Shown: piece after piece, positions 5,440 to 64,000 of the stretch | Layout: every line of letters begins with the position of its first letter | How positions within the stretch are numbered: position 1 is the first letter of the stretch | IMG/VR virus record: IMGVR_UViG_3300045988_160394 | Location: 96,001 to 160,000 of that record | Direction: 5' to 3' (one strand) | DNA from: a virus | Length of the DNA: 64,000 bases | Notes under the pieces: generated by a model | Seen by the model: the letters and a program-made list of their open reading frames with translations, nothing else | Database searches by the model: none | What the model was told of the DNA's origin: nothing | Position numbers and translations under genes: made by a program

Positions 5440-5715
5440 ATGACTTTTGAAAAATATTGTAATGGAGTAATTGAAGATTTTATTGAAGATGTTGAGTTAA
5501 AACTATGTCTAGAACTAACTCAAGATCAGAAAGATGATATTTATACAGCTATGGAAGAACATAAAGAATGTTTTGAAGAAGAATATGAATCTTTCTGTAA
5601 AGAAGACGCTGAAATGATTATTTCTGTTATATATTCTGAATCAGTTGCTATAGAATGTATGAATTGTAATGAAACAATTATAGATACTGATGTTTTGTTT
5701 TTAGGTAATGAATAA
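5440..5715 (+). CDS. small acidic hypothetical protein (91 aa)
   Basis: Intact ORF with RBS GGAGGAGG. Its TAA overlaps the next ATG (TAATG). Confidence 0.5.
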   Translation: MTFEKYCNGVIEDFIEDVELKLCLELTQDQKDDIYTAMEEHKECFEEEYESFCKEDAEMIISVIYSESVAIECMNCNETIIDTDVLFLGNE

Positions 5716-18142: not shown

Positions 18143-21100
18143 ATGCAGAATAAATATATACCGTCTCATTTACATACTACTACAGGTAGTATAGGAGACT
18201 CAATAATAAAAATACCAGAACTAATTAAAAAAGCTAAACAACTAGATTTGCCTGCAATCGCCATCACTAATCATGGGTCTATGGCAGATATGTATGATTT
18301 TTATTTTGAATGCGTTTCTAACAATATAAAACCTATTATTGGATGTGAAGTATATACAACTGATGATATGGATTATAAAGAAAAAGATGCAAGACGAAAT
18401 GGACATCTAGTTATTTTAGCAAAGGATAACAATGGATTAAAGAATTTACTATCTATAACAGCCGCTGCACAATTACAAGGTTTTTATTATAAGCCTAGAA
18501 TTGATTATAACTTCTTAGAATCTACTGATACTTCTGGTTTAATAGCTACAACAGCTTGTGCAGGAAGTGATGTTAATCAATTGATATTACAAGATAAAAT
18601 AGAAGAAGCTAAAGAATTGATATTAAGGATTAATAATATATTTGAAACGTTCTTTTTAGAAATCCAACCAGGTGATTTCGATGAACAGAAAAAAATAAAT
18701 AAGCAATTGATAAAATTCAGCAATGAATTAAAGATACCATTAATAGCTTCTAATGATATACATTATTTAAATGCAGAAGATTTTATAGCACATGATGCTC
18801 ATGTTAAAAGCTATAGAAAACAGAAGTTGAATGATACGCTTTATTATCCTGATACTTGTTATTATTTAATGACAAGAGAAGAATTATTTGAAGCGTTATC
18901 TAAATATGTAAATGAAGATATTGCAAATACGGCTATTAATAATACTTTATTATTAAATGATATGTGTAACGTTGTTATAGATGTAAATGAATTAAATCTA
19001 CCTACTTTTCAGTGTCCACAAAAAATGACACCAAAAGCTTATCTAGAATATATCTGTTTACAAAAAATAGATAAAATAAAAGATAAGATTTGTGATGTAG
19101 TAGAGTATACAGATAGAATGTATATGGAGCTAGAAGTAATAGATAAATTAGGGTTCTGTTCTTATTATTTAATAGTAAGAGACTTTATGGAATATGCAAG
19201 AGAAAATAATATACCATATGGACCAGGCAGAGGTTCTGTATGTGGTTCATTAGTAGCTTATTTAGCAGGATTAATAAAGATAGATGCTATTAAATATAAT
19301 CTGTTATTTGATAGATTTTTATCTATTCATAGAACTGGTTCTATTCCTGATGTTGATTCAGATTTTGGATCATCAGGAAGACAAATGATGTTCGACTATG
19401 TTGTTAATAAGTATGGAGCAGATCATTGTGCAGCAGTTTCTACATTCCAAATGAGAAAAGCAAAATCAGCTATTAAAGATGCAGCTAGAATGTTAGACTT
19501 AGTTGAAGAAGGAGAGTGTATAGCTAAACTTATTCCTATGGTCTATTATGATGATGATGGAGATAAATTAACAGATTTATCTATAGAGGATTCTTTAAAA
19601 GCTGTTGAGGAATTAAGAGAATTTAAAGAAATATATCCTAAAATATTTGATATAGCCATGAAGATGGAAGGATTACCTAGATCTTCATCTATACATGCTG
19701 CTGGAACATTAATAGCTAAAACTCCATTGCATGATTTAATACCTATGATTAAGAAAAAAGATAGTGACTTATTAAATGCTACTAGTTTCGATTTATCTCA
19801 AGCAGAGAAAATGAAATTAGTTAAATATGATTTCTTAGGGTTATCTACTTTAGATGTATTAGAAGAAACTAAGAAAACAACAGGTTATTATTTTGATATA
19901 GAATTTGATAAATATGATGATGAAAATGTATGGAAGTTAATAGGTTCTAGAAATACTACAGCTTTATTCCAAATAGCTTCTTCTACTTATAAACAAAGAA
20001 TGTGGAGATTAAAACCACAAACAATAGAAGAATTAGCTGCTTGTTTAGCATTAGTTAGAGGACCTTGTATTTCAGCTAAAACAGATCAAACATATATAAG
20101 AATATTAGAAGGTAAAGAAGAAGTAAAAACAATTCATCCTTTTTATGATAATGCCGTTAAAGATACATTAGGTATTATGATATATCAAGAACAATTAATG
20201 GAATGTTGTCATAATTTTGGTTTACCTTTACATGTATGTTACGATATAATGAAAGCAGCGGCTAAAAAGAAGTTTGATAAACTTGAAAGTTATGAACAAG
20301 AATTGTGGGAATTGGCCGAACCACATATGAGTAAAGAAACTTTCGATATTATCTTTAAGATAATAGTTGATTCTGGATTATATTCATTTAACAAATCACA
20401 TGCAGTTGCTTATGCTACTTTATGTTATGAAACAGCATATTATAAATACTATTATCCTAAAGAATATTTAGCAGCTGAACTTACTAACATTTTTACATCT
20501 GTTGCAGCAGACAAAAGAAAAGAAAGAGTTGCTGAAACTGTTAAAGACTGTAGAAGATTAGGTATTAAATTTTTACCTATAACAGCACAAGATTCTGAAT
20601 GGAAATTTAAAGTCGAAGGTGATTCTATAAGAATAGGTATGTGTTCCATATCTTCTTTTGGTGAAAAAGCTTATAACGCCTTTTCTTTAGTTGAGGATAA
20701 AACAAGTATTGAATCCGTTTTTGAATCTGTTAATAAAACAACCTGTAATAAAAAAGCTTTTAATGCTTTAATATTTGCAGGTGCTTTTGGTGATAGAACT
20801 CAAGCATATTTAAAATATTGTGAATTAAGAGATGAATCACCAGTAGATGAAATAGTTTTTCATAAAACATTACGTGTTAATATATATGAAGATGATAGAG
20901 AAATAGAAGAAAAACTATTATCTTATAATTTTATATATAATCTAACAAACAATTTAAATGCTTTCGGATACAAGAATTTAAAGAAGAAAGCAGAGTTTTA
21001 TTGCGATGCTTTAATTACAAGAGTAAAAACAAAGAATGATAAGAATAAAAATAAAATGGCATGGATAACATTAGAGACAGGAGACGGCATTATAGAAGGT

Positions 21101-21217
21101 GTCGTCTTTGCTAATGTATATGCTAAATATAGAGCTCTTATTAAAAAAGATTCTTTTGTAAAAATTAAAGCAAGAAAAGAAGATGATGAAACTTGTTTTG
21201 TTAGTAGCATAGAATAG
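18143..21217 (+). CDS. dnaE: DNA polymerase III alpha-subunit homologue (DnaE type), copy 1
   Basis: PHP region PSHLHTTTGSIGDS (atypical), PGRGSVCGSLVAYLAGL, catalytic IPDVDSDF, FNKSHAVAYA. No TGA. Confidence 0.9.
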   Translation: MQNKYIPSHLHTTTGSIGDSIIKIPELIKKAKQLDLPAIAITNHGSMADMYDFYFECVSNNIKPIIGCEVYTTDDMDYKEKDARRNGHLVILAKDNNGLKNLLSITAAAQLQGFYYKPRIDYNFLESTDTSGLIATTACAGSDVNQLILQDKIEEAKELILRINNIFETFFLEIQPGDFDEQKKINKQLIKFSNELKIPLIASNDIHYLNAEDFIAHDAHVKSYRKQKLNDTLYYPDTCYYLMTREELFEALSKYVNEDIANTAINNTLLLNDMCNVVIDVNELNLPTFQCPQKMTPKAYLEYICLQKIDKIKDKICDVVEYTDRMYMELEVIDKLGFCSYYLIVRDFMEYARENNIPYGPGRGSVCGSLVAYLAGLIKIDAIKYNLLFDRFLSIHRTGSIPDVDSDFGSSGRQMMFDYVVNKYGADHCAAVSTFQMRKAKSAIKDAARMLDLVEEGECIAKLIPMVYYDDDGDKLTDLSIEDSLKAVEELREFKEIYPKIFDIAMKMEGLPRSSSIHAAGTLIAKTPLHDLIPMIKKKDSDLLNATSFDLSQAEKMKLVKYDFLGLSTLDVLEETKKTTGYYFDIEFDKYDDENVWKLIGSRNTTALFQIASSTYKQRMWRLKPQTIEELAACLALVRGPCISAKTDQTYIRILEGKEEVKTIHPFYDNAVKDTLGIMIYQEQLMECCHNFGLPLHVCYDIMKAAAKKKFDKLESYEQELWELAEPHMSKETFDIIFKIIVDSGLYSFNKSHAVAYATLCYETAYYKYYYPKEYLAAELTNIFTSVAADKRKERVAETVKDCRRLGIKFLPITAQDSEWKFKVEGDSIRIGMCSISSFGEKAYNAFSLVEDKTSIESVFESVNKTTCNKKAFNALIFAGAFGDRTQAYLKYCELRDESPVDEIVFHKTLRVNIYEDDREIEEKLLSYNFIYNLTNNLNAFGYKNLKKKAEFYCDALITRVKTKNDKNKNKMAWITLETGDGIIEGVVFANVYAKYRALIKKDSFVKIKARKEDDETCFVSSIE

Positions 21218-31017: not shown

Positions 31018-31021
31018 TTTA

Positions 31022-32369
31022 TTATATGGGTGTCGAAAGACTCTTGTTGTTGGTGTACTACGGAGTGTCCCTTAAGCACTTTAAAACCATCAATGGGTAT
31101 GGACATTTAAAACCCATGCCACTGTTCCGTGAATGACGGGTATCGTAAGAGTAGAATATCATTCACTTGTATTGTATGCAATATTAGTCAAGGATAGAAA
31201 TGGCTTCTATCACGCTACTAAAAAGTAGTTGTCAGAGATGTAGGGTTGCCAAACTTACTAACTAATTAGCAAAACTAACTTCGGTATCAAATGATTCAAC
31301 TTTATAGCTAGTGTAATGTCCGTTAAGCATTTAAAAGCTATATGATCAATGAAACTTATGAAAGGCAGAATTATAAGTGGAGATCATCATTCAGGTTTAT
31401 AGTTAGATCCTGTTATGCTTACTTTATTGAATTATAAAATAATCTTTAAAAATAAAATTAATAATGGCGTTAATTGAAAATCTTTTATCACAATAAAACA
31501 ATAAAGGAAAAACATAAAAAAGCTATAATCATAACGATCATACTGATATTTCCTACGGGTTGTCAGTTAATAAATGGAGGCGAGTTGTCCGCAGAATTAA
31601 CCGTAATAGTGGGGATTAATACACTAGGCAATAAATCTACTCCTACATCTAATAGGGTTAGTAGTCTTAGAAAGACTATAATCTTAAAAGGGCAAGGTAA
31701 CAGCTAGAGCACAAATCCTAATCTGAGAAGTTAGGTCGCATTAAGTGGTAAGACACTATTTTTTAAATAAAATCAGTTACTAAAATCTTAATTGACGTGA
31801 GCATTCTTCTTCAGCTATTAATGAAGATGAAAATAAGTCTCTTCTCAGCAGTTGAGTATATGCTATGACTAGTAAAATAGTCTATCCAATATGAGGAGAA
31901 ATATCATATGCGTGGTGGATACAGGTGTATGACATATAGCAGGTCAGTTACCATCGCACTGGCTGTCAATTTAACCTGTAATTTTAATAGAGATCCCCCT
32001 AGGGCTATGTCATTAGGAATAATGTTAACCCCAACTGAGGGCCGTTTAAATCGTTACGAAGTACAAGTAACACTGTAATAGGGACATAAGCTGAGTTCAG
32101 TACGGCTACTACAAAAACATTAAAATCTCGCTACCGTCTAACATAATCCTCTATCATGTTTATTAGCTAAGTTAGACTAGATAATAATACTAAGATAGAT
32201 GCCTAGTTTTGCGAGGGGTCTAGGGTTAATTAGAATTAAAAGTACCTCTCTTTACGGAAATGGGTTACCAGGGTAATTCCCCCTGTAATGTATGTGCTTT
32301 ATGTTTTTTCAATTTTTAGGCTGAAAGAGCCGTCAAGGAGATCGGTTAAGGATACTGATCTCCTAATAT
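31022..32369 (+). ncRNA. candidate large structured non-coding RNA (about 1.35 kb; possibly two RNAs split by an AT-rich stretch at 31440-31545)
   Basis: No credible ORF in any frame even with TGA as sense. G/C visibly enriched compared with the flanks. Many short G/C-rich helices, some with GNRA-type loops: 31032-31041 gtc-GAAA-gac; 31093-31117; 31193-31211; 31997-32004; 32269-32285; 32319-32331; 32337-32363. Bounded by a tRNA-like element and a terminator. The + strand is inferred from these. Confidence 0.45.
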
Positions 32370-32444
32370 CGGAGTATAGTTTATGGAAAACACCAGAAAG
32401 CATTTATGTTGGTAATGTAAGTTCGATTCTTACTGCTCCGACCA
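32370..32444 (+). tRNA. tRNA-like element (acceptor stem + T arm + encoded ACCA) with a non-canonical anticodon arm; isotype not assignable
   Basis: Acceptor cggagta/tgctccg (7 bp, one G-U). T arm gtaag-TTCGATT-cttac. Discriminator A plus CCA. D-arm-like gttt-atgga-aaac. The middle region forms only accag/ttggt with a 12-nt loop. No TCA anticodon is present. Confidence 0.45.
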
Positions 32445-32479
32445 TTAACCACACAAATATATATGTTAAATCAACAAAA

Positions 32480-32510
32480 AGACTAGAAGGTTTTATCCCT
32501 CTAGTCTTTT
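32480..32510. terminator. bidirectional intrinsic terminator
   Basis: agactagaagg-ttttat-ccctctagtct has T runs on both strands. It lies between the + strand RNA region and the stop of the convergent dnaE copy 2. Confidence 0.75.
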
Positions 32511-32513
32511 ATA

Positions 32514-35500
32514 TTATTTAAGTTTAACGGAACTTATAATTAATTGTTTTCTAGAATCTTTTTTACCTTTTATTATAAGAGTTGGTTGAGGTCTATCTTC
32601 TCGAACTTCAAACTTGTCTGAATTAGCACAATATGTTCTAGCAAAAGCTACACAAGGTATTGTTACTCCTTCTGATTCTATCTTAGGGAATGACATCATA
32701 TTACCGTTTTTATCTATTAATTCTCTATTAGATACTACTGTTGCTTCTATTTCAATAGTTTGATTTGTTTCTACTTCATCCCACCATGGTTTATATGTTA
32801 TAGGTAATCCTAAAGTTTTAGTTTCATAATCCATACATACTTTTTCATCATAAGTATCAGCAGTAGGCATTATTTCTATTTTATCTTTTCTTAAAGTATA
32901 AAATTCATTTAATAAAGCATTTCTATTAGTATTAAACTTATCTAATGCTCCTGACTTTATTAATGCTTCTCCTACTCTTTTATTTAAGAACTTTTTAGGT
33001 ATTCTATCCATCATATCTTGTAAAGAAGTGAATTCTCCACTTTCTTTTCTTATTTTTAGTATTTCTTTAACAGCATTTTCTCCTACACCTTTTATAGAAC
33101 CTAATCCATATAATATCTTAAAGTTTTCAGGTAATGGTGTAAAGTCTTTATTAGAGATATTTATATCTGGTAATTCTACTTGTAATCCCATATCTTCTAC
33201 TACAGGTATATATTTAACTCTTTTCTTTTCGTCATCTTGTACTGATAATACAGATGCAAAGAAATCAACTGGATAATATCTTTTTAAGTAAGCTGTTAAT
33301 AATGTTATATATGAATAACAAGCTGCATGAGATTTATTAAATAAGTAAGAAGCATATCCTTCCATATCAGCCCAGAAAGCTTCTAAATCTTTTATATCAT
33401 ATCCATTATTAGATGCTCCTAATATTGGTGCACCATATTTTGCAGATGGATCATACATAGTACAATTTGGATTATTATTATCATATCCTTTTGGTGCTTC
33501 TTCATTTTTCTTACCATAGATTAACCATCTTTTACATAAGTCCATTATAGCTTGTTTCTTTTTAGCTAATGCTTTTCTAAGATATGAGTCTGCTTGGTTA
33601 TCGTCGAACCCAGCAATCTTTTTAGCAATAGCCATTACTTGCTCTTGATATACAATAGTACCGAATGTATCTCCTACGATATCTTCTGTATCATGAACTG
33701 GCATTACTATTTCTTCTAAGCCATTCTTTCTATTGTTATATTTAGTATGCATTCCTGCTTGTAGAGGACCAGGTCTTCCTATTGATGTAAGAACGACTAT
33801 GTCATCCATACTTGTTGGTTGCATATCAGAGATGATACCTTTAAACAAGTCAGATTCTATTTGGAAAACAGCTTCTGTTTCTTTATTACATATCATATCG
33901 AATACACCTTCATCATCTAATTCAACAGTTTTATATAAGTCTTCCCATTCAAGAGTTTCATCTATTGAATGCATAGCTTTATCAATTACACTTACTGTTT
34001 TTAATCCTAAAAAGTCATATTTAACTCCATTACATTCTTCAACTTGAGGACCAGTATATAAAGTAACTTTAACTCCAGTATCAGGATCTATTCTTATAGG
34101 GAATGTATCTGTTATAGGATTAGGAGTAGTAAGTATACCTGAAGCATGTACACCAAAGTTTCTCTTAGTACCTTCAAATCTTCTAGCTAATCTAAATAAC
34201 TCTGGATATTCATTTTCTATTTCTTTAAATTGTCTATATTTTTCAGGGTCAGTCTTTTCGTATTCATCTAAATCTTTAAAAGATATACTAGGAGCTTCAT
34301 CTGTTATTACAGTTATCTTTTTAGATATTTCATCTGTTATTGCATATGGCATATCTAATACTCTTCCTATATCTCTTACTCCTGATTTAACGCCTAATTC
34401 TGAATAAGTTCCTATATGAGCTACACATTCTTCTCCATATACTTCTTCCATATGTTCTATTACTCTATCTCTACCATAATAACAAAAATCTACGTCTACA
34501 TCTGGTAAAGCAGTTCTATCCATAGTTAAGAATCTTGAGAACAGTAATCCATTTTGTATAGGATCTATTACTTTAGTTATTCCTAATAAGAATAATACTA
34601 AACTACCTGCTGCTGATCCTCTCCCTGGACCTGTAGGTATTTTATTGCTATTAGACCAAAATATAAACTCATCTACTGTTAACATATAAGGAGCATATCC
34701 TTTTTTGTTTATTACATATAACTCCCAATTTAATCTAGCTTCATATTCTCTTCTATCATATTCAGGATGTTTAGCTAAATATTTATATAATTTCTTCCAA
34801 CACTTATATGTTAAGTATTTTTCACTTGTATATCCTTTAGGTAATTTAACTTCTGTAAATAAAGGTTTTTCACTTTTTAATCTTATATCTCCGTCTACCA
34901 TTTCAGCTATTAAGTTAGTATTTTCTAATCCTTTTATTACTTCTTCCATATATTCTTCGTTAGGAGCCAATCTTTTAAAAGCATTTACCATTTCATCATA
35001 ACTTCTCATCCAGAACTCTGGTTCATATCTCATTCTATCTATTTCGTCTTTCTTTTTGCCTAATCCTATACATAATAAAGTATCATGATCGTCTATATCA
35101 CTTTGTCTTGTATAATGAACATCATTAGTAGCTATTATTTTTAAGTCTAACTTTTTAGCCAATTTTATTAACTCTATATTTACTTCTTTTTGTACTTCCC
35201 AATCTAATCCTTGTATTTCTACAAATAGATTTTCTTTTCCGAAGATTTCTTTCCATTCAGTTAATATTTTTTCAGCAGTATCTATCTTACCATGTTTTAT
35301 AGAATTAGCTATTACAGAACCTATACATGCAGTTGTACATATTATTCCTTCTGAATACTTTTTAAGTAATTCGTTATCGCAATGAAATCTTGCATTAAAT
35401 AAACCTTTTTCAGATGCTTCACTTTGTATTTTAACAAGATTATGCCATCCTATTTGGTTTTTAGCTATTAATATAATATGATATCCTTTAGTATCGTACA

Positions 35501-35849
35501 TATAAGGTTTTATCAATTCGTTAATTTCTTTTTTAGTTGCTTTTCTAGGTATTTCTATTCCGTTTTTTATTGCTTCTTCTTGTGCTATTTTTGTTCTTTT
35601 ATCTAATGGTAAAGATATCATATCTCTATCCCATGTCCAATATAATTCAACTCCTAATAATGGTTTTATTCCATTCTCCTTACAAGCTGATTGAAACTCC
35701 AATACTCCACCTAAATGATTATGATCTGTTATAGCTAATGCCTTCATATTTAACTCTTTAGCTCTTAATACTCTTTCTAATGGACTTCCCATTCCATCTA
35801 GTAAACTGTAATGAGTATGACAATGTATATGCGTAAAGTTCTTTTCCAT
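32514..35849 (-). CDS. dnaE: DNA polymerase III alpha-subunit homologue (DnaE type), copy 2
   Basis: Canonical PHP HIHCHTHYSLLDG, PGRGSAAGSLVLFLLGI, catalytic LPDVDVDF, FNKSHAACYS. All 14 Trp codons are TGG. Confidence 0.9.
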   Translation of the reverse strand: MEKNFTHIHCHTHYSLLDGMGSPLERVLRAKELNMKALAITDHNHLGGVLEFQSACKENGIKPLLGVELYWTWDRDMISLPLDKRTKIAQEEAIKNGIEIPRKATKKEINELIKPYMYDTKGYHIILIAKNQIGWHNLVKIQSEASEKGLFNARFHCDNELLKKYSEGIICTTACIGSVIANSIKHGKIDTAEKILTEWKEIFGKENLFVEIQGLDWEVQKEVNIELIKLAKKLDLKIIATNDVHYTRQSDIDDHDTLLCIGLGKKKDEIDRMRYEPEFWMRSYDEMVNAFKRLAPNEEYMEEVIKGLENTNLIAEMVDGDIRLKSEKPLFTEVKLPKGYTSEKYLTYKCWKKLYKYLAKHPEYDRREYEARLNWELYVINKKGYAPYMLTVDEFIFWSNSNKIPTGPGRGSAAGSLVLFLLGITKVIDPIQNGLLFSRFLTMDRTALPDVDVDFCYYGRDRVIEHMEEVYGEECVAHIGTYSELGVKSGVRDIGRVLDMPYAITDEISKKITVITDEAPSISFKDLDEYEKTDPEKYRQFKEIENEYPELFRLARRFEGTKRNFGVHASGILTTPNPITDTFPIRIDPDTGVKVTLYTGPQVEECNGVKYDFLGLKTVSVIDKAMHSIDETLEWEDLYKTVELDDEGVFDMICNKETEAVFQIESDLFKGIISDMQPTSMDDIVVLTSIGRPGPLQAGMHTKYNNRKNGLEEIVMPVHDTEDIVGDTFGTIVYQEQVMAIAKKIAGFDDNQADSYLRKALAKKKQAIMDLCKRWLIYGKKNEEAPKGYDNNNPNCTMYDPSAKYGAPILGASNNGYDIKDLEAFWADMEGYASYLFNKSHAACYSYITLLTAYLKRYYPVDFFASVLSVQDDEKKRVKYIPVVEDMGLQVELPDINISNKDFTPLPENFKILYGLGSIKGVGENAVKEILKIRKESGEFTSLQDMMDRIPKKFLNKRVGEALIKSGALDKFNTNRNALLNEFYTLRKDKIEIMPTADTYDEKVCMDYETKTLGLPITYKPWWDEVETNQTIEIEATVVSNRELIDKNGNMMSFPKIESEGVTIPCVAFARTYCANSDKFEVREDRPQPTLIIKGKKDSRKQLIISSVKLK

Positions 35850-35883: not shown

Positions 35884-35912
35884 ATTATACGTATTATACG
35901 TATAAAAGTCAA
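35884..35912 (-). promoter_or_regulatory. sigma-A-type promoter with palindromic operator in the spacer (copy 1)
   Basis: Minus strand: TTGACT-N17-TATAAT. The spacer contains TATACGTAT-A-ATACGTATA (35886-35904). Lies upstream of dnaE copy 2. Confidence 0.65.
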
Positions 35913-36695: not shown

Positions 36696-36714
36696 ATTTA
36701 TTTCCCCTTTACTG

Positions 36715-36927
36715 CTATACTAATACATCATTATTATCTTCTGTTACTATTAATTTTTCATCTTCAGTAATTAGAAGTCTATCTTGTGGAGTATTTATAA
36801 CTTCACCTTTTATAATTTTCATTACATCTCTTCCATCAGAAGTGACAAGACTTCCTTTTTTAAACATAACACTACCTTGTATTTTGGTACCTTGATCTAA
36901 GGTCATGTGTAATGGTGGTCATGCCAT
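36715..36927 (-). CDS. hypothetical protein (70 aa); TGA is codon 3
   Basis: ATG 36927 follows AGGGGTG. Reads M-A-[TGA]-PPLH and continues into ORF-track 36715..36906. Confidence 0.45.
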
Positions 36928-36982
36928 TATTAATCACCCCTTTATACATTAAATATAAAGGAGAAAATTAATTCTCCTTTAT

Positions 36983-37147
36983 TTATCTTGCTGGTCTATT
37001 TGGTAGCTCTGGTATATAAGTAGCATCTTTGTTTTGTGCTTTATATACTTTCTTTTGCCACTTAGCAATATCTAAAGTATATGGGTCCTTATAGTCTGAA
37101 CTAGATTTAGTCATAGTTCCATTTCCAAAGTATTTTCCTTTACTCAT
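36983..37147 (-). CDS. small hypothetical protein (54 aa)
   Basis: ATG follows AAGAGGTG and the ORF ends TAA. Below the ORF-track size cut-off. Confidence 0.4.
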   Translation of the reverse strand: MSKGKYFGNGTMTKSSSDYKDPYTLDIAKWQKKVYKAQNKDATYIPELPNRPAR

Positions 37148-37183
37148 TATTAAACACCTCTTTATTAGCTTTTAAAAGCTTAT

Positions 37184-40514: not shown

Positions 40515-40543
40515 ATTATATACGTATCATACGTATATGTCAA
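40515..40543 (-). promoter_or_regulatory. consensus sigma-A-type promoter with palindromic operator (copy 2)
   Basis: Minus strand: TTGACA-N17-TATAAT. The spacer holds TATACGTAT-G-ATACGTATA (40519-40537). Confidence 0.7.
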
Positions 40544-40549
40544 TAAAAA

Positions 40550-40579
40550 AATAAGATAAGGTAAAAAGCTTATCTTATT
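40550..40579 (-). terminator. intrinsic terminator
   Basis: 11-bp stem aataagataag/cttatcttatt followed by a T run on the minus strand. Sits directly after the sigma gene. Confidence 0.75.
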
Positions 40580-40585
40580 CTATAT

Positions 40586-41479
40586 TTATATTGTAGGAAG
40601 GCTAGCTTTTCTACCAGAGTTCCTACTTCTTTTTAATTGTTCTTTACTATAATTAGATTGATTACAAAGCTTATTAATAGCTTCACGTCTTCTTTGATTA
40701 ATGGTATTTATATGAGCTCCAAAATATTCTGCTATTTGTCTATCGTTTCAGTTTTCTAAATAATACTTAACAAGTATTTTTCTTTGAAAAGTAGATAAGC
40801 TTACAAATAGTTTTCCACATGTTTGACCATTTAATCAAGACAAATCAGGCAACCCTGTTATCATTTCATAATTATTATCTAAATTCTCTACAACTGATTT
40901 TTCAGTATCTATTGCTGTTGTTCAATCTTCAAATACATGATTCTTATAATTAATACTTAATGGATCTTTGATTCATTTTTTTATATGTCTGCCAACTTCA
41001 TGTTTGAAAACATTGTGTACATATGCACAAAAGTTTTTTCCTACGTTCTTATATCTTTTAGCTAATATTAAAAGACACATGCTTAAATCAGAAATTATAT
41101 CTTCTTCAGTATTTGCTCCGTATGTTTTTGTTACAAAATTGAATTTATTATAAGCACTAGCTCTATTTTCAGCATTTATCTTTTTTCTATATAATGCTTT
41201 TTTTAGTTCATAATCGTCAACAAATAAAGCTACGAATTCTTTTGTTTCTTTATCAGTTCAGTCTATGATTAAATGCTTTATAACTTGTATATATTTTCAG
41301 AAGAGAGGAGAAAACCTTGCTAATAGAATGTTACCGCATTCATCAGCATATTTCTTTTCAACCTCTGTACAGTCATTACTAAATTGTGCTTGAAAATGTA
41401 ACACTAAAGCTTCAATCTCATCTCACTCTTCTTTAAGTTCTTCTTCACTTTTAAAACCTAAATTAGTGAGTTTATTCAT
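40586..41479 (-). CDS. sigma-70-family RNA polymerase sigma factor (297 aa); all 7 Trp codons are TGA
   Basis: Checked codon by codon: open from ATG 41479 (RBS AAGGAG) to TAA 40586, with TGA at 40748, 40835, 40922, 40973, 41258, 41297 and 41423, and no TGG. Region 2-like EEDIISDLSMCLLILAKRYKNVGKNFCAYVHNVFKHEVGRHIKK. Region 4 HTH LSTFQRKILVKYYLEN[W]NDRQIAEYFGAHINTINQRRREAINKL. Confidence 0.8.
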
Positions 41480-41498
41480 TTTCATTCTCCTTTATTTA

Positions 41499-42095
41499 TT
41501 AATCATCACTTAATATATCTAATATTTGAACAAATATATTTATTATATCTAAATACATATCCATTACATGATTTAATATATTATCATCATCCATGGCTCT
41601 ATTCTTTTTAATTTCATTTTTAAACTTATTAAAATCATATGCTACATATCCGCAGAATAATAATACTATTACATATGCTAAGAATGGCATATTAACAAAC
41701 ATGCTTATTAAAGATAATATTAATACTACTATTAAACATGCAAAAAGAGTGCTACCTAGTCCAGATAAGTCTTTTGTTAACAGCCCTATTATCATGAATA
41801 TTACTACCATAGCTATTGTAATTCCTATAGCTGATAATATAATACTTATATTTATTGTTGTACTTTTTAATATTATTTGAGCTATTAACATACCTTCGGT
41901 AAAGTTAAATATAAAAAACAGTATCTTTTTAATTACTCCTTCACTAAATAAAAAAGCTAGCATTAATATTAAAGATGCTGCTATTAATATTACTACTTTA
42001 ACTGTACTTAAGAGAGGACTTAATAAAGCCCCTACAAAAGTTACAATTAAAGACAGTATTAAATACATAAAATATTTTATATAATAATTCTTCAT
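41499..42095 (-). CDS. BAX-inhibitor-1/YccA-family (TMBIM-like) integral membrane protein
   Basis: About 6-7 hydrophobic spans. The C-terminal MYLDIINIFVQILDIL matches the family signature LYLDIINLFL. Confidence 0.65.
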   Translation of the reverse strand: MKNYYIKYFMYLILSLIVTFVGALLSPLLSTVKVVILIAASLILMLAFLFSEGVIKKILFFIFNFTEGMLIAQIILKSTTINISIILSAIGITIAMVVIFMIIGLLTKDLSGLGSTLFACLIVVLILSLISMFVNMPFLAYVIVLLFCGYVAYDFNKFKNEIKKNRAMDDDNILNHVMDMYLDIINIFVQILDILSDD

Positions 42096-42107: not shown

Positions 42108-42653
42108 TTATTTTTTCTTTTTTAATTTCTTCTTCTTTTCCCATTCAGAATACTCTAACCATTTCTTTTCAGAGTTATCCCAAATAACACACATAAAATC
42201 AATATCAGGGTATCTAAACTTAAGCATCTTTTCTTTTAGTTTGAAATCAGCAGTTTTAATACCTTTTGGATCGATTGTCTTTTTAGATCCATCTGCATAT
42301 GTTACTTCAAAGTCAGATATATATTTAATAGCTTGTACTATTTCAATCTTATCTTCTGGATTAGCTTTATTCCATGCTAATCTTTTTTTATTTAATTCTT
42401 TATATTTAGGATGTTCTTCTGTAACACAAAATCCATTCATAATAAAGAATTTAGGTTGTAATACATATACTGGTTGACACTTAATATCTTTAACTCTACC
42501 AGCTTTCTTTTCAGCTTTTAAATATAAATAGTATTCTGCTTCCATTTTAGAATCGAATGTTCTACCATCTATTGTAGTTTTAATATGCTTTATTTTACCT
42601 TCTGATTTCTTTTTTGTTCTTCTTCTTCTAAATGCCATTTTTAAATCCCCCAA
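42108..42653 (-). CDS. DUF1064-like endonuclease-fold protein
   Basis: DGRTFDSKMEAEYYLYL, ISDFEVTYADGSKKTIDPKG and FKLKEKM match the DUF1064 pattern (recalled). The likely start is ATG 42638. Confidence 0.6.
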   Translation of the reverse strand: MGDLKMAFRRRRTKKKSEGKIKHIKTTIDGRTFDSKMEAEYYLYLKAEKKAGRVKDIKCQPVYVLQPKFFIMNGFCVTEEHPKYKELNKKRLAWNKANPEDKIEIVQAIKYISDFEVTYADGSKKTIDPKGIKTADFKLKEKMLKFRYPDIDFMCVIWDNSEKKWLEYSEWEKKKKLKKKK

Positions 42654-42790: not shown

Positions 42791-43504
42791 TTATTCATCT
42801 TCATTGCCTGTCCATGATTTGCATAAATCTCTAACTATACATGATGTACATAGAAAAGTTTCTCTTGGATATATTATATTATTTTCTAAACATATCCCTA
42901 TATTAGTTAGTATACTCTTAAGTCTTGTAAAATCTTTCACTGATCTTAAAGTTTGCATTGTTTTCCCTTGTGCAGGTACATAATATGTTATAACTACATC
43001 TTTGTTAAACATTTCTCTAATAGCATAAGCATCAATAGTATGTTTTAACATCATATCTATTGTAACTCTATCAGGTATAGCTTTATCAAATGATACTATA
43101 AATAATTCTATATAATTTTCTCTATCTATCATAGGTGGTAATTGTCCTGTTAGTTTTATTTTAGTACCTGGTATTTCTATAGAATAAGCTAAGTTAACTT
43201 CTGTAAAGTTTAATCTATTTAATGTTACATACTCATATGTTCTATATAATAAACCCCATCCTTCAAGAATCTTTTTAGGATTAAGTATATCTGTATTTTC
43301 TTGAGCAACTTTGTCCCATTTCTTTTTTAAAGTTATACTGTCAGCTTTCATACCATTACATTTAGAAGCTAACCATTGATTAATTGTCTTAGAAGCTAAT
43401 TTTTTATAACTTCTTTCACTACCAATATCTATTCCCTTTTTTATAAGCTCATATCTTAAAGGACATTTTAAATATTCAAATAATTCTTTTTCCTTTAATT
43501 CCAT
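42791..43504 (-). CDS. Cas4/RecB-like PD-(D/E)XK nuclease with Cys cluster
   Basis: N-terminal YLKCPLRY and C-terminal CTSCIVRDLC give a Cas4-type 4-Cys arrangement. ATG 43504 follows AAGAGGTGA. Confidence 0.6.
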   Translation of the reverse strand: MELKEKELFEYLKCPLRYELIKKGIDIGSERSYKKLASKTINQWLASKCNGMKADSITLKKKWDKVAQENTDILNPKKILEGWGLLYRTYEYVTLNRLNFTEVNLAYSIEIPGTKIKLTGQLPPMIDRENYIELFIVSFDKAIPDRVTIDMMLKHTIDAYAIREMFNKDVVITYYVPAQGKTMQTLRSVKDFTRLKSILTNIGICLENNIIYPRETFLCTSCIVRDLCKSWTGNEDE

Positions 43505-43525: not shown

Positions 43526-43554
43526 ATTATATACGTATGGTACGTATATGTCAA
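43526..43554 (-). promoter_or_regulatory. consensus sigma-A-type promoter with palindromic operator (copy 3)
   Basis: Minus strand: TTGACA-N17-TATAAT. The spacer holds TATACGTAC-C-ATACGTATA (43530-43548; one mismatch to the palindrome). Confidence 0.7.
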
Positions 43555-47896: not shown

Positions 47897-47921
47897 CTTA
47901 TACGTATGATACGTATGTCAT
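47897..47921 (-). promoter_or_regulatory. palindromic operator copy 4 with degenerate -35/-10
   Basis: CATACGTAT-C-ATACGTATA on the minus strand (47899-47917; one mismatch to the palindrome). The flanks are ATGACA and TATAAG/TAAGAA with a shortened spacer. Confidence 0.45.
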
Positions 47922-59594: not shown

Positions 59595-61517
59595 TTAAAT
59601 AATATTAATATCTGCTATTATAGCATCTCAATATTTTTCTTCATTTTTAGTATTAGGTGTTAACATCTTTGAATTCAGCTTTCTATTAAAAGCATCATTA
59701 TTTAGTATACTATTTATACCATTATTAATGATTCTTAAAGAGTCAACTAATTCATTATATATATCACAAGTTATAAAAGTTTCTCTAGGAACTATTCTAG
59801 TAAAGTTAAAGAATCTATTATAAGCTTTTGCTTTATCATTTATATAATCTTGTAGTTCTTTTATCAAATAGCCTTCTGTTATTTCTAATGCCCTTATCTT
59901 ATCTAAAGCTTCTCTTCTTTTAAAATTATATGTTTCTGAAATAGGAGATTCTCCATAAACATTTCTCATATAAGCTTTAATAGCTATAGTCTCTTTACTT
60001 GTAAGATTGTTATCATCTGGAGCTACAAACATAACTTTATCTCCACTTATAGAAAAACATTCTGAATATTTTTTATTGTCATAATCTATTCCATTTAAAT
60101 TAACGATAAAAGTGCTTGCTCCATCATATCCAGAAAATATAAATCTAGGAGATATGCTATAAATTCCAGTGTTAGGCACTGATGGAGAAACTAATTTAGG
60201 AGTACCTTTCGGTTTAGAACCTTTTTTAAAATCTATCTTATAAGACCAATCGCTATATAATAATCCATCAGTAGATCTTACTCATACTTCATAATCACAT
60301 CCATCAGGATCTGAACCTATATCAAAGTTATATGATGTATCTTTTATTCTACTTTCAATAATCTTATCTCTTATTTTATAGCCATCAGCATCTATAGTTT
60401 TTATTCATACTTCATAAGAAACGCTATCTTCATCTGGATCACTAGAAGCATCTCAAGTAAATGTTAAATCATTATAAATAATATTTCTTTTACCTGAAAC
60501 AGATAAGTTTTGAGGGGTAGTCGGTCTACCATTATATCTATGTCCACCAACTAAACCTGTTCCTGTAGACTCTTTTCCATAAGCATTTTTAGCTCATGCT
60601 TGATAATATACATCATGGCCTTCATGCTCTCTGCCGAAATAAGCATCGAAATCTATATCATAATCTCATGATTGACCAGCATAAAAAGTTCCACTTGTAT
60701 CGTATGTTCTTATTTCTTTTTGGATTCCATTACAATATGCTCTTAATCATATTTCACCAGAAGCGTTATTATTATCTACATACTTTAATGTTAACTTTCC
60801 ACTACTTCCTTTAGCAGGATGAATATTTAATTCAGGATTAACAGCATCTTTTACTATGCCAGATGTTACAACACTATCATAATAATATTTTCTAAAATAA
60901 AAAGCACAACTCTTTCTACTTATTTGTTTATATCCAGAGTCAGAAATTCATCCATTAGAGCTGTTTGCACTACCATTAAGTTGTTCGAATCTACCATTAT
61001 CATGAGCCCAGTTATTAGTATCTTGACCATGTTTATAAGCCCAATCTGACCATGCACATGTATGATAGTCTCAGTCTTTAGGAACTATTGCATATATACC
61101 ATAAAGGTTGTTTTTAGGTTTTGCTGGAGTGCTATCTGTAAAATTACCATAAGAATATCTACTTAAATTGTTACCATAGTTACCATAATAGAAAAAAGGA
61201 ATAGAACCATCTGTACATTGGAAGTGATACCCCATTGTTTTCAATGAGTACAATCCTTCAGCTTGAACTGTTACATCATTCTCATCTATGTCTATAGAAA
61301 TTGTTTCAGTAGTATCGTAACTTACCCATGGTTTGTTTCCTACTTTTATTCTTGCCTCAACTAGTTCTATACCTTCTCATATTCCTTTCCTAGCAGTAGT
61401 CCCTCCACCAACATGTGTTGCTGTATAATTTGATCTAGAACAAGTTATGCTTTTAGGACTTAAATCAAAAGTAACACGACATTTATTATTAACAATACTC
61501 GTACTATGATTTATCAC
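59595..61517 (-). CDS. FN3-domain-containing virion protein (640 aa), ten in-frame TGAs
   Basis: The frame was checked triplet by triplet from GTG 61517 to TAA 59595. TGA at 61377, 61071, 60948, 60747, 60666, 60594, 60453, 60405, 60282 and 59628. FN3-like region: PTTPQNLSVSG..LTFT[W]DASSDPDEDSVSYEV[W]IK...DYEV[W]VRSTDGLLYSDWS. Confidence 0.65.
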
Positions 61518-64000
61518 TATTTTTCACCGCCTTATTTTTTAATAAAGTTATTTCATCTTTTAATTTAATTATTTCTTTATGAGCTTCTTTTAATCCTTGC
61601 CATAATACAGCTGTTACAGCAACAGGATCTATTGTTTTTAAATCATGTAGATCATTACCGTTTTTATCTTTAGGGAATATTATATCTCCACTTTCTATTT
61701 CTTTATCAGTAAATTTCATAGTATTAACTGTTAAAGGGAATTGTGCTTCTAAGTCTTGAGCAAAGAAACCAAATATAGGAGTTTGTGAAGTATCTTGTGC
61801 ATAGCAGTATATCTTTGGTTTAATAGTATCTATTTTTTCTAATATTGTTCTTTCATCTGGATCGTCACTTAATTTAGAAAATTGAGTTAATTCAATTTTA
61901 GTTCTTTCGTCAGATTGTTGACGATATACTTTAGCATAAATATCTACATATTGTCCTTCTATATTTGCAAAATGTCATCCATAGTTACCTGAACGTCCTT
62001 CACAATATAAATCGGGCTGAGAACTACATCATGATACTAATTTTGCATCTAATTTTACATCTCCTGTAGCATGCATAGCACCTGTTTGGAATGTATTTAC
62101 GTTTTCTAATATTAATTGCTTACCATCTTGTTTGTAATACATTCTTCCATTTTCTCCACCACCATATCAGTCATGGATTCTAAGATATTTTCATGCAATT
62201 AAATCTCCTCATGCTTCTATATTATTTTGTGCAATAAAGTGTCCAGAAGCTTTTAATTTAGTATCTTCAAATACATCTAATCTATAATGGAAGTCTTTTG
62301 CCGAATCCTCATTATAATGGAAGTCTATAAATCTACCTATTTCCATTACACCATCATTACCTATTATAGGAATAGTGTTTCTATTTTTTCCATTAGAAGC
62401 TCCTACTCAGTTACCATTTATATTTTTAGTATAAGTTGAATTAAATGGTCATTCTGAAGTTCCTAAAGAACTAGCCCCTCCACCAGAGAATGGTATTAAC
62501 CCTAGTTTAGTAGTTCTAATTCATTCATTGTTAGAATTATTTCTACCTCTCATACCATAGTAATCACCTTCATCTGTTCCATAATAACAACCCATTGCAC
62601 CTATATCTCCTATAGATATGTTATTTATTTTAGAACAAGACACTTGTCTTCCTCCTGGAGGATTCTGCTGTAACTTTTGATTACTAAACATTGTTACATC
62701 ACCAGAACTCATTATTAAGCTAAAAGATATAAAAGTGTAACTTTGATCACATTTTACTCATAACTCATAATCTGTTAATTTATTAGTTTTTGTTATTTCT
62801 ATTAATTTAAAGTTGTTTTCGTTTATAGTTAAATAATCAGATAAAAATAAACTACAAGCTGTTTCTTGCCCCATAGCTGCTTGTTGTTTTACTCTAGCAG
62901 TTATTTCTCCTTTGATTGGAGTAGTTCTACCAGAACCATGATCAAGCACTTTTATAATAGCTTGAGCATCATCATATTGATAATGTATTTTAAAACTAGC
63001 TACTCTACTTCACCATCCAACTTTATCTCCGTTTGTTCCTTCTGTTTCGTATCCTCTATTTGAAAAGCTATTAGCACGAGCAGTTCCATTAACTAATAAA
63101 GGATATTTTTCTTCAGCTTTTGCTCCACCTACTCCTAATCCATACTTATTAATAAATGCTACAGAGTTTACAGCTGGAATACTTGTAGAATAAGAATGTG
63201 TTCCTGATAATCCTAAACCATCTAAAAAGCTTACATGGAAACCATGTGCATACTCACCAAATAAAGATATGTTTAATGTTTGTATATCTTGTGTGTTTTT
63301 TAATTCTCCTCTAATCTCTTGACCTTTTTCGCCAACACAATTCCATTGTCCTTGAATCTCAACTCCAGGTATAGATGTATTAGCTTTTACTGATAACTGT
63401 ATTTTTGCATCAGCTGATGTTCTTGTCATAGAGTTTATTGATAATGTTGGAGGATTATAATAATGTATATCTACTGCTCCTGAATCTAAAAAGTTATCTG
63501 TACCATAATCAGAAACTACATGAACTCCAAAAGCTAATGTGTGTTTACTATTTTGTTTTGGTAATGTTACAGAATAATTTTTTGTTGAGCTATTAACTTC
63601 AGTTATATAAGAAGCATGTCCATCAATTATTTGATGTAATGTATATTTAAATCCTCCTCCTAATGGATCTCCTCCACCTTCCCATGAGAAAGTAATAGTA
63701 TCACTACCATTAGGAACATAATATTTTTGCCCATTGTGACAAGTTTTTAAAGCTGTTCCTCCTGATATCCATACTCTGCTTGGAGGATTTGGAGTTGCTC
63801 TAATATCTACTCATACTGTTCTACTACTAAATTTAGAACTTCCATTATTATTTTTAGTAGCTAATCCAATATGGAGATTACCTTTATAAGAATTTCCTGA
63901 AAAAGCTTTCTTCAAATCATCAAATTTTATATAAGGACCAGAAGGTGTACTTCCTCCTTTTCATATTGTTATAGTATCTGAAGTTCCAGTAACGTCTCTT
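61504..64000 (-). CDS. large tail-fibre protein, 5' end outside the window, at least 12 in-frame TGAs, C-terminal intramolecular-chaperone-like tail
   Basis: ORF-track fragments 63010.., 62758.., 62521.. and 61504.. are all in one frame. Every line from 61681 to 64000 was checked and is free of in-frame TAA/TAG. The C-terminus DPVAVTAVLWQGLKEAHKEIIKLKDEITLLKNK resembles the end of S74-type chaperone domains. Confidence 0.65.

What the first reader, a model, noticed from the sequence alone, without database searches (positions are those of the whole stretch)
40586..41479. Phage sigma factor whose seven Trp codons are all TGA: a possible translational gate on late transcription
The gene is invisible to the ORF track because it is split into 8 pieces. 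Read with TGA = Trp it is a clean 297-aa sigma-70-family protein with region 2 and a region-4 HTH. It has 7 TGA and 0 TGG. It lies in a unit driven by a host-type TTGACA/TATAAT promoter (copy 3), so its mRNA could be made early. Full-length sigma can appear only once TGA is decoded as Trp. Linking code switching to late-gene transcription would be a regulatory layer beyond the published idea that recoding gates lytic genes.
Basis: partly seen in the sequence, partly recalled or inferred. Interest (0 to 1): 0.85.

Follow-up and report, generated by a model that had tools for sequence, protein, structure and literature searches.

The report
Opal-recoded sigma factor in jumbo phage
A 263-kb phage writes every tryptophan of its own sigma-like transcription factor with the stop codon TGA while the other genes on the same predicted transcript use normal TGG, so the factor can only be made once the phage makes cells read TGA as tryptophan.

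Summary
A 297-codon ORF on the minus strand (40586-41479) has 7 in-frame TGA and no TGG, and ends in TAA.

- **TGA means Trp.** The three conserved Trp columns are TGG in 16 standard-code relatives and TGA in the recoded ones.
- **The protein is a divergent sigma-70-family factor.** TIGR02937 matches at 8.7e-9 across regions 2 and 4, and fold hits are mostly sigma factors. Every curated cut-off is narrowly missed.
- **The recoding is specific to this gene.** Across 8 recoded lineages the sigma gene has 48 TGA and 1 TGG. The adjacent upstream cistron (DUF1064) has 0 and 24. RecJ, in the next downstream unit, has 1 and 23.
- **The sister clade is unrecoded.** It has the same synteny and promoter/operator but uses TGG throughout.
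- **The gene is under selection.** dN/dS is 0.10.
- **It looks early-transcribed.** It is the last cistron of a unit behind a perfect TTGACA-17-TATAAT promoter.

The translational dependence on TGA decoding is therefore well supported. Two links are missing. No late promoter motif was found, and no UCA suppressor tRNA is in this window, which covers 24% of the genome. The "late transcription" step is inference. The finding is a new variant of known phage stop-codon recoding and is not mentioned in the Borges et al. preprint.

The parts
40586..41479 (-). Sigma-70-family gene: 297 codons plus TAA, with all 7 Trp codons TGA
   Evidence: Translation and codon positions. HMM matches: TIGR02937 8.7e-9 over residues 115-271; Sigma70_r4 7.2e-5; PHROG 351 sigma factor 2e-7. 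AF2 model pLDDT 80. Foldseek top hits are sigma factors.
41423..41425 (-). TGA codon 19 (Trp invariant in the family)
   Evidence: TGG in all standard-code relatives aligned at this column (14 of 16; two have a gap) and TGA in all recoded ones. W19 is invariant in 25 homologues.
41297..41299 (-). TGA codon 61 (newly gained; relatives have Lys AAA/AAG)
41258..41260 (-). TGA codon 74 (relatives have TTT/TTC/TTA/TAC or TGG)
40973..40975 (-). TGA codon 169 (relatives have Phe/Tyr/Gln)
40922..40924 (-). TGA codon 186 (nearest standard-code relatives have Cys TGT; TGA in the five recoded lineages aligned)
40835..40837 (-). TGA codon 215 (Trp invariant in the family)
40748..40750 (-). TGA codon 244, inside the region-4 HTH domain (Trp in most of the family)
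41487..41491 (-). Ribosome-binding site AGGAG, 7 nt upstream of the ATG at 41479
   Evidence: Read directly from the sequence.
43526..43554 (-). Perfect sigma-A-type promoter TTGACA-17-TATAAT heading the unit. The spacer holds twin palindromic ATACGTAT/ATACGTAC octamers (operator-like, 43531-43547).
   Evidence: The same arrangement sits upstream of the orthologous 237-aa gene in relatives.
42791..43504 (-). First cistron of the unit: 237 aa, unknown function, 0 TGA and 4 TGG
42108..42638 (-). DUF1064 / Holliday-junction-resolvase-like cistron: 0 TGA and 4 TGG
   Evidence: The Pfam DUF1064 assignment is for the orthologues.
41499..42095 (-). Membrane protein cistron directly upstream of the sigma gene, with no Trp codons. 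The L054 orthologue matches Bax1-I.
40548..40581 (-). 13-bp hairpin followed by a U-run, directly after the sigma stop codon (terminator-like)
   Evidence: -12.1 kcal/mol, z = -5.0.
40515..40543 (-). Second perfect TTGACA-17-TATAAT promoter with the same operator. It starts the next unit (small ORF, then RecJ).

Best explanation
The window comes from a 263-kb jumbo phage of a low-GC, anaerobic Firmicutes-type host. The phage uses TGA as a Trp codon in some of its genes.

SHOWN
- The gene at 40586-41479(-) encodes a divergent sigma-70-family protein. It has a sigma-2-like helical domain with an insertion and an N-terminal extension, followed by a sigma-4 HTH.
- All 7 of its Trp codons are TGA.
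- It is the last cistron of a conserved unit headed by a perfect host-type promoter, and the other cistrons of that unit use only TGG.
- The all-TGA state arose once, in a clade whose sister clade keeps TGG at the same positions with the same synteny and promoter.
- That state has been held through deep divergence under purifying selection.
- The Trp count rose from about 3 to 5-7.

FOLLOWS LOGICALLY, if the host terminates at TGA
- Ribosomes stop at codon 19, so no sigma is made from this mRNA until TGA is decoded efficiently as Trp.
- Yield scales roughly as (read-through efficiency)^7. That gives near-zero leak and a steep threshold.

INFERRED
- The factor redirects host RNA polymerase core to late (virion/lysis) promoters.
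- Late transcription is thereby wired to the code switch. Because the tail-fibre and lysis genes themselves carry TGA, late gene expression would need the switch twice, once for the factor and once for the late proteins.
For: **TGA count and frame.**

**TGA means Trp.** W19, W215 and W244 are TGG in standard-code relatives and TGA in recoded ones. Across genes, TGA aligns with W at 33 of 61 sites, and otherwise mostly with F, C or Y.

**Sigma family.** TIGR02937 matches all 25 homologues scanned. The window protein scores 8.7e-9 over residues 115-271, aligned to profile positions 17-161 of 165. Sigma70_r4_2 matches 25 of 25 and Sigma70_r4 matches 23 of 25. PHROG sigma families match. A profile search of PDB gives co-linear FliA matches to region 2.1 and region 4. 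The AF2 model has pLDDT 80, and nearly all of the top 50 Foldseek hits are sigma factors (WhiG prob 0.97, SigB 0.95).

**Gene-specific recoding.** TGA/TGG counts for the sigma gene are 7/0 (window), 7/0, 5/0, 6/0 and 6/0 (L001, L003, L043, L044), 7/0 (L054), 5/0 (L055) and 5/1 (L056). That totals 48/1. The adjacent DUF1064 cistron totals 0/24 and RecJ 1/23.

**Comparison with the nearest standard-code relative.** In the sigma gene, 3 of 3 conserved Trp codons are converted and 3 TGA are new. Converted fractions elsewhere are DnaE 0/14, RecJ 0/4, the 237-aa gene 0/3, one tail fibre 5/9 and the 917-aa gene 2/9.

**Single origin.** The recoded sigma genes form one split in 272 of 300 NJ bootstraps.

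**Sister clade.** It is fully standard-code, including its tail fibres.

**Selection.** dN/dS is 0.10 at dS 0.49, with all 7 TGA kept.

**Promoter and operator.** Present here and conserved in relatives. A hairpin with a U-run follows the gene.

**Statistics.**
Against: - No sigma HMM reaches its curated cut-off for this protein: TIGR02937 35.2 against 42.9 bits, and Sigma70_r4 22.7 against 24.1.
- Pfam Sigma70_r2 matches only 2 of 25 homologues.
- Foldseek E-values are weak (0.02-0.8) and global TM-scores are low.
- No candidate late promoter motif exceeded chance, so the regulon is unknown.
- No UCA suppressor tRNA, RF1 or TrpRS is in the 64-kb window or in about 12 kb of flanks. The only tRNA-like gene has an aberrant anticodon arm with no UCA.
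- Some replication-type genes also carry TGA: SNF2 helicase at codons 44 and 140, and primase at codon 285. TGA decoding may therefore start earlier than 'late'.
- One recoded lineage (L056) has one TGG.
- Between the window and L054, keeping all 7 TGA is not in itself significant, because about 0.8 changes would be expected.
Confidence: 0.6

Rival explanations
1. Passive tolerance rather than an evolved gate. The factor is only needed late. Once the clade acquired TGA decoding, AT-biased mutation converted its few TGG codons and created new TGA from TGT, TTT and AAA codons. Selection only forbids TGA in genes that are needed early. The delay in sigma synthesis is real but is a by-product.
For: The genome is 28% GC. 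The new TGA codons mostly sit where relatives have single-step neighbours such as TGT, and C is 7 of 61 aligned residues. Structural genes in L003 are already about 79% TGA (22 TGA, 6 TGG), so 100% of only 5-7 codons is not far from mutational equilibrium. Keeping 7 of 7 between the window and L054 is not significant. L056 has one TGG.
Against: The sigma gene is more fully converted than any structural gene in the window (7/0 against 32/46, p = 0.003). Its Trp content has doubled to 2.4 per 100 codons, against 1.1 for virion genes. It is the only heavily recoded cistron in a standard-code unit, across 8 lineages (48/1).
Confidence: 0.25
2. The protein is not a true sigma factor. It is a sigma-4-like HTH transcription activator of late genes (ArpU/RinA-type) or some other DNA-binding regulator. 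The TGA dependence still applies, but the protein would act alongside host sigma-A rather than replace it.
For: Only the region-4 part is clearly detected by Pfam. ArpU family TIGR01637 matches 13 of 25 homologues, best E-value 2.9e-7. Curated sigma cut-offs are not reached.
Against: The TIGR02937 alignment covers region 2 as well as region 4 (residues 115-271). The PDB profile search gives a co-linear match to FliA region 2.1. Full-length fold hits are to sigma factors of 190-340 residues. At 297 aa with a conserved helical N-terminal domain (pLDDT above 90 over residues 20-170), the protein is much larger than ArpU-type proteins.
Confidence: 0.12
3. There is no gate, because TGA is read as Trp all the time. 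Either the host uses genetic code 4, or the phage delivers or expresses a suppressor immediately on infection.
For: No gene in the window clearly terminates with TGA; the one possible case is SNF2 codon 554. A few early-type genes contain TGA.
Against: Replication-type genes have 100 TGG and 8 TGA at 28% GC, whereas genomes that read TGA as Trp throughout strongly prefer TGA (established knowledge). Operon mates have 0 TGA in 8 lineages. The sister clade is standard-code. The only contigs carrying relatives in genome collections are binned with Clostridia and Bacilli MAGs. The mosaic pattern matches phages inferred to infect standard-code hosts (10.1101/2021.08.26.457843).
Confidence: 0.05
4. 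The TGA codons act as a dosage attenuator rather than a timer. Suppression is never complete, so seven TGA codons keep the sigma factor at a low steady level throughout infection.
For: Yield scales as efficiency^7, which is inference. Regulators are typically needed in small amounts.
Against: Tail-fibre genes, which are needed in quantity, carry 9-10 or more TGA each. Suppression must therefore become efficient.
Confidence: 0.08

Closest known systems
Stop-codon recoding as a translational regulator of late and lytic genes in gut phages (Borges et al., preprint 10.1101/2021.08.26.457843; TGA-recoded Jade, Sapphire and Agate clades)
   Same: The genome is large and low-GC, with a mosaic of standard-code replication genes and TGA-containing structural and lysis genes. 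TGA means Trp. TGA is absent as a terminator. The close standard-code relatives are also depleted of TGA. At 263 kb, with about 31% of genes carrying TGA, the genome fits the size and recoding ranges given for those clades.
   Different: That work reports preferential recoding of lysis proteins, tail proteins and an intron endonuclease. The word 'sigma' does not occur in its text. Here the most completely recoded gene is a transcription factor embedded in a standard-code unit. Membership of a named clade was not tested.
Jade-phage 'code-change module': suppressor tRNA, TrpRS and RF1 encoded in standard code upstream of a recoded lysis cassette (same preprint)
   Same: A standard-code element controls when the TGA-containing genes can be expressed.
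   Different: No such module is in the window. Here the logic adds a further layer, in which a regulator of transcription is itself a client of the code change.
Phage-encoded sigma cascades: Bacillus phage SPO1 gp28 then gp33/34, and T4 gp55 (established knowledge)
   Same: A phage sigma-like factor is encoded among early/middle genes and is transcribed by host RNAP. It presumably redirects the polymerase to later promoters.
   Different: In those systems timing is set by transcription and by co-activators, not by the genetic code. No sequence relationship to those proteins was tested here. The nearest annotated phage homologues are in Moorella phage MTATph1 and in Bacillus phages vB_BceM_WH1 and 0305phi8-36, at 22-27% identity, and none is characterised.
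bldA (tRNA-Leu-UAA) control of TTA-containing regulators such as adpA in Streptomyces (established knowledge)
   Same: Translation of a transcription regulator is made conditional on one tRNA activity, which couples a developmental switch to decoding capacity.
   Different: TTA is a rare sense codon and usually occurs once per gene. Here a stop codon is reassigned and used 7 times, in a virus.
ArpU/RinA/LtrC late-gene activators of Gram-positive phages
   Same: They are sigma-region-4-like. Weak TIGR01637 matches occur in 13 of 25 homologues. A role in switching on packaging and lysis genes would fit.
   Different: The window protein itself gives no ArpU match at E <= 0.1. It is about twice as long and has an additional sigma-2-like domain.

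Membership tests
Sigma-70 family RNA polymerase sigma factor | C-terminal sigma-4 domain (region 4.2 HTH) | tested here: met
   Sigma70_r4 7.2e-5 and Sigma70_r4_2 8.7e-5 over residues 227-271. 25 of 25 homologues match Sigma70_r4_2, best 1.2e-8.
Sigma-70 family RNA polymerase sigma factor | Sigma-2 domain (regions 2.1-2.4: core binding and -10 recognition) | tested here: inconclusive
   The TIGR02937 alignment runs from residue 115 and profile position 17, so it covers region 2. There is a co-linear match to FliA region 2.1, and sigma factors dominate the fold hits. Pfam Sigma70_r2, however, matches only 2 of 25 homologues at 0.0017.
Sigma-70 family RNA polymerase sigma factor | Score above the curated family cut-off | tested here: not met
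   TIGR02937 35.2 bits against 42.9; Sigma70_r4 22.7 against 24.1; Sigma70_r4_2 22.5 against 25.7. The protein is a divergent member at best.
Sigma-70 family RNA polymerase sigma factor | Binds RNAP core and confers promoter-specific initiation | not testable with these tools
   Needs biochemistry.
TGA-to-Trp recoded phage infecting a standard-code host | In-frame TGA at positions that are conserved Trp (TGG) in standard-code relatives | tested here: met
   Sigma columns 19, 215 and 244. 14 TGG-to-TGA columns across 8 window genes. W at 33 of 61 aligned sites. This rules out code 25 (Gly), which aligns at only 1 of 61.
TGA-to-Trp recoded phage infecting a standard-code host | Mosaic use: replication genes standard, structural and lysis genes recoded | tested here: met
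   Replication-type genes 8 TGA and 100 TGG; virion/lysis genes 32 and 46 (p = 4.7e-8). There are exceptions in the SNF2 helicase and the primase.
TGA-to-Trp recoded phage infecting a standard-code host | TGA not used as a terminator | tested here: met
   All 54 listed genes end in TAA or TAG. The only possible TGA stop is SNF2 codon 554.
TGA-to-Trp recoded phage infecting a standard-code host | Phage-encoded code-change machinery (tRNA-UCA suppressor, RF1, TrpRS) | tested here: inconclusive
   None is in the window or about 12 kb of flanks. Only 24% of the 263-kb genome could be read. The tRNA-like gene at 32370-32441 has no UCA.
TGA-to-Trp recoded phage infecting a standard-code host | Host terminates at TGA | not testable with these tools
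   The host is unknown. It is inferred from the TGG-only early genes and from binning with Clostridia and Bacilli MAGs.
Phage late-transcription factor | Cognate non-sigma-A promoter motif upstream of virion and lysis operons | tested here: inconclusive
   AT-rich candidate words (ATATAATAATAAG, TAATATAATAWTA) are not enriched over shuffles. One -10-like element after a terminator is shared with the standard-code relative upstream of the 485-aa gene, but that is only two sequences.

The most novel reading that the evidence does not exclude
Recoding of the phage's own sigma factor was selected as an ultrasensitive timer, with output scaling roughly as suppression efficiency to the 7th power. 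It hard-wires the late transcription programme to the genetic-code switch. Because four standard-code cistrons on the same predicted mRNA act as an internal control, this locus would be the cleanest evidence so far that phage stop-codon recoding is adaptive regulation rather than mutational drift. It would extend that regulation from individual lysis proteins to the transcriptional hierarchy.
Probability: 0.35. Interest if true: 0.8.

Novelty: new variant of a known kind. Interest (0 to 1): 0.66.

Why it matters
Whether stop-codon recoding in phages is a regulatory device or a by-product of low GC content is unresolved. Here one cistron is fully recoded while its neighbours in the same predicted transcription unit are untouched. 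This holds across eight diverged lineages, and there is an unrecoded sister clade to compare with. That makes a natural experiment that can be tested directly: swap TGA for TGG in a single gene and measure the timing of late transcription. If the factor does drive late genes, the genetic-code switch sits above transcription in the phage programme.

There is also a practical point. Standard gene callers split or miss this regulator. The ENA code-11 calls on the source contig split the TGA-containing SNF2 gene and fragment the tail-fibre region in the same way.

Tried and rejected
- **Code 25 (TGA = Gly).** Rejected. TGA aligns with W at 33 of 61 sites and with G at 1.
- **Pseudogene.** Rejected. 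dN/dS is 0.10 over the full code-4 frame, and 40 invariant columns include residues downstream of every TGA.
- **Recent transfer of the gene from a code-4 donor.** Rejected. The gene is orthologous and syntenic with TGG-coded copies (DUF1064, sigma, small ORF, RecJ), has the same promoter/operator, and groups as sister to them.
- **Code-4 host.** Rejected as unlikely, as set out in the rival explanations.
- **Late-promoter motif hunt in intergenic regions.** Nothing above chance.
- **Suppressor tRNA hunt.** ARAGORN found nothing in the window or in 46 related loci apart from one tRNA-Leu. Rfam found one tRNA-like gene. Relaxed ARAGORN reads it as Cys-GCA with a mismatched stem, or as UUA with a 5-nt 'intron'. 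Neither is a credible UGA decoder. Its 3' half has no exact match in IMG/VR.
- **Near-identical DNA in GenBank phages.** None.
- **First attempts that failed.** A Biopython bootstrap timed out and was redone with my own NJ code. One DNA query was too long.

Full report
**1. The observation**

The feature is a minus-strand gene. Its ATG is at 41479 and an AGGAG site lies 7 nt upstream. Its TAA stop is at 40588-40586. In that frame there are 297 sense codons. TGA falls at codons 19, 61, 74, 169, 186, 215 and 244. There is no TGG and no other in-frame stop. Standard decoding therefore gives eight pieces, the first only 18 codons long. The window has 28% GC.

**2. The code of the genome**

I built a code-4 ORF map and tabulated TGA positions. 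Use of TGA is mosaic.

| Gene class | Genes | TGA | TGG |
|---|---|---|---|
| Replication / nucleotide metabolism | 39 | 8 | 100 |
| Virion / lysis | 13 | 32 | 46 |
| Sigma-like gene | 1 | 7 | 0 |

- The replication class includes AAA ATPase, UvrD and SNF2 helicases, DnaG, NrdD/NrdG, dUTPase, two DnaE genes, RecJ, DnaB and a primase.
- The virion/lysis class includes tail fibres, a collagen-like fibre, an endolysin and a 1384-aa Amidase_2/NlpC protein.
- Fisher tests give p = 1.5e-7 for sigma against the replication class and p = 0.003 against the virion class.
- No listed gene ends in TGA.
- The tail-fibre ORFs stay open upstream of their first ATG and contain further TGA codons.
- The source is ENA ERZ1756024 NODE_19, 263,172 bp. 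Its code-11 gene calls split the SNF2 gene and fragment the tail-fibre region.

**3. TGA means Trp**

- I aligned the sigma genes of 20 related loci codon by codon. Columns 19, 215 and 244 are TGG in the standard-code relatives and TGA in all recoded ones.
- Column 186 is TGT (Cys) in the nearest standard relatives and TGA in the recoded ones. The remaining TGA codons replace Lys, Phe or Tyr.
- Across all genes of five recoded phages, TGA aligns with W at 33 of 61 sites. The rest are F 8, C 7, K 4, Q 3, Y 3 and G 1.

**4. What the protein is**

- Pfam gives Sigma70_r4 and Sigma70_r4_2 just under their gathering scores. PHROGs gives sigma-factor families, the best at 2e-7.
- NCBIfam TIGR02937, the sigma-70 superfamily model, matches at 8.7e-9 from residue 115 to 271. 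This spans regions 2 and 4. It is below the curated cut-off but matches all 25 homologues scanned.
- Sigma70_r4_2 matches 25 of 25 homologues. Sigma70_r2 matches only 2 of 25.
- A profile search of PDB sequences finds FliA with co-linear matches to region 2.1 and region 4, at E = 0.03.
- An AlphaFold model built from 25 sequences has mean pLDDT 80 and is all-helical.
- Nearly all of the top 50 Foldseek PDB hits are sigma factors, including WhiG, SigB, SigD, SigH, sigma-A, sigma-32, sigma-S, FliA and ECF factors. Their E-values are weak.
- GenBank phage homologues at 22-27% identity are in large Firmicutes phages, and one is annotated as sigma-70 family.

I conclude that this is a divergent sigma-70-family protein. 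Region 4 is secure. Region 2 is probable.

**5. Comparative evidence**

The large protein database holds 158 homologues, many of them on contigs of 210-270 kb. The DNA of relatives shows two states.

*Recoded state.* The table gives TGA/TGG for the sigma gene in each lineage.

| Lineage | Sigma TGA/TGG |
|---|---|
| Window | 7/0 |
| L001 | 7/0 |
| L003 | 5/0 |
| L043 | 6/0 |
| L044 | 6/0 |
| L054 | 7/0 |
| L055 | 5/0 |
| L056 | 5/1 |
| Total | 48/1 |

In the same lineages the DUF1064 cistron just upstream totals 0/24. RecJ, in the next downstream unit, totals 1/23.

*Standard state.* All 39 IMG/VR loci, plus L045 and L046, have only TGG and 2-4 Trp codons.

- The recoded sigma genes form one split in 272 of 300 bootstraps. 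Their sister is a standard-code clade at 62-74% identity.
- That sister clade has the same gene order. It has no TGA in 20 kb around the sigma gene or in 22 kb of tail genes, either as a sense codon or as a stop.
- Orthologue-by-orthologue comparison with the sister clade gives these converted fractions of conserved Trp codons: sigma 3/3 plus 3 new TGA; DnaE 0/14; RecJ 0/4; DUF1064 0/2; the 237-aa gene 0/3; one tail fibre 5/9 plus 4 new; the 917-aa protein 2/9.
- Between the window and L054, dS is 0.49 and dN/dS is 0.10, and all seven TGA codons are retained.
- By Trp count, about 28 of the 90%-identity clusters appear to belong to the recoded group.

**6. Transcriptional context**

- Two perfect TTGACA-17-TATAAT sites lie on the minus strand at 43554-43526 and 40543-40515. 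The expectation is 0.18 per window.
- Both carry twin palindromic ATACGTAT octamers in the spacer. Two further operator copies lie at 35887 and 47900.
- The first promoter follows a terminator. It heads the unit made up of the 237-aa gene, a small ORF, DUF1064, a membrane protein and the sigma gene. No terminator-like site lies inside the unit.
- A 13-bp hairpin with a U-run follows the sigma stop codon. The second promoter comes next.
- The promoter/operator arrangement is conserved in both recoded and standard-code relatives.

The sigma mRNA is therefore most likely made by host sigma-A polymerase together with replication and recombination genes.

**7. Mechanism**

If the host terminates at TGA, translation of this cistron stops at codon 19. 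It stays blocked until TGA is decoded as Trp. Full-length protein needs seven read-through events, and the last is inside the HTH domain. Leak is therefore negligible and the response to rising suppression is steep. That the factor then activates late promoters is inference, resting on analogy with phage sigma cascades and on weak ArpU-family matches in homologues. I could not define a late promoter.

The decoding machinery is not in the window. ARAGORN finds nothing. Rfam finds one tRNA-like gene at 32370-32441 with an abnormal anticodon arm and no UCA.

**8. Comparison with the literature**

The Borges et al. preprint proposes that recoding regulates late and lytic genes. It reports preferential recoding of lysis and tail proteins and of an intron endonuclease, and it describes a standard-code 'code-change module' in Jade phages. 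It never mentions sigma factors. Three further full-text searches found no paper that links a recoded sigma factor to the code switch.

**9. Verdict**

- The dependence of translation on TGA decoding is strongly supported and is specific to this gene.
- The adaptive-gate reading and the late-transcription reading are plausible but unproven.
- The main rival is passive tolerance of TGA in a gene that is only needed late.

Noticed in passing
window 35887-35903, 40520-40536, 43531-43547, 47900-47916: There are four copies of an operator-like element made of two palindromic ATACGTAT octamers one base apart. Two of them fill the spacer of perfect sigma-A promoters. All four sit in front of replication-gene units on the minus strand, and the arrangement is conserved in recoded and standard-code relatives. 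The regulator that binds them is unknown.
   Followed up: partly
window 32370-32441 (+): A tRNA-like gene scores 45.2 bits against Rfam (gathering score 29) but default ARAGORN misses it. The acceptor, D and T arms are normal. The anticodon arm is 20 nt instead of 17 and has no UCA. Relaxed ARAGORN calls it Cys-GCA or UUA with a 5-nt insert.
   Followed up: partly
window 31018-32513: A 1.5-kb stretch with no convincing ORF lies between the plus-strand and minus-strand gene blocks. It holds a skipping-rope RNA (RF02924, 31183-31266, 57.6 bits) and the tRNA-like gene.
   Followed up: no
window 5715-7382 (+): The SNF2-type helicase in the otherwise standard-code replication block has in-frame TGA at codons 44 and 140, and another at the penultimate codon 554. 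The ENA code-11 calls split it into 43, 94 and 413 aa. The code boundary is therefore not strictly early against late.
   Followed up: partly
window 18143-21217 (+) and 32514-35849 (-): There are two DnaE-type DNA polymerase III alpha genes in one phage, only about 32% identical. Neither carries TGA.
   Followed up: no
L049/L051 (IMG/VR 3300045988 contigs), whole loci: The standard-code sister clade has no TGA at all in 22 kb of structural genes, either as a sense codon or as a stop. This fits the 'stop-codon loss precedes reassignment' stage proposed in the literature.
   Followed up: partly
window 5236-5333 (+): There is a sub-threshold Rfam hit (61.8 bits against 65.2) to a Clostridioides difficile sRNA that lies inside a helicase gene. 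It falls inside the UvrD-like helicase here. It probably reflects coding-sequence similarity and may be a weak hint about the host.
   Followed up: no
window 59595-61503 and 61504-64000 (-): The tail-fibre ORFs remain open upstream of their first ATG and contain additional in-frame TGA. The last one runs off the window. The true proteins are therefore longer and more heavily recoded than the ATG-trimmed map shows.
   Followed up: partly
window 36696-37183 (-): A small ORF between the endolysin and the collagen-like fibre gene has TGA as its third codon (ATG GCA TGA CCA ...).
   Followed up: no
window 41499-42095 (-): A multi-pass membrane protein with no Trp codons sits between DUF1064 and the sigma gene. 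It is seen at this position only in the window, L044 and L054, and the L054 orthologue matches Bax1-I.
   Followed up: no
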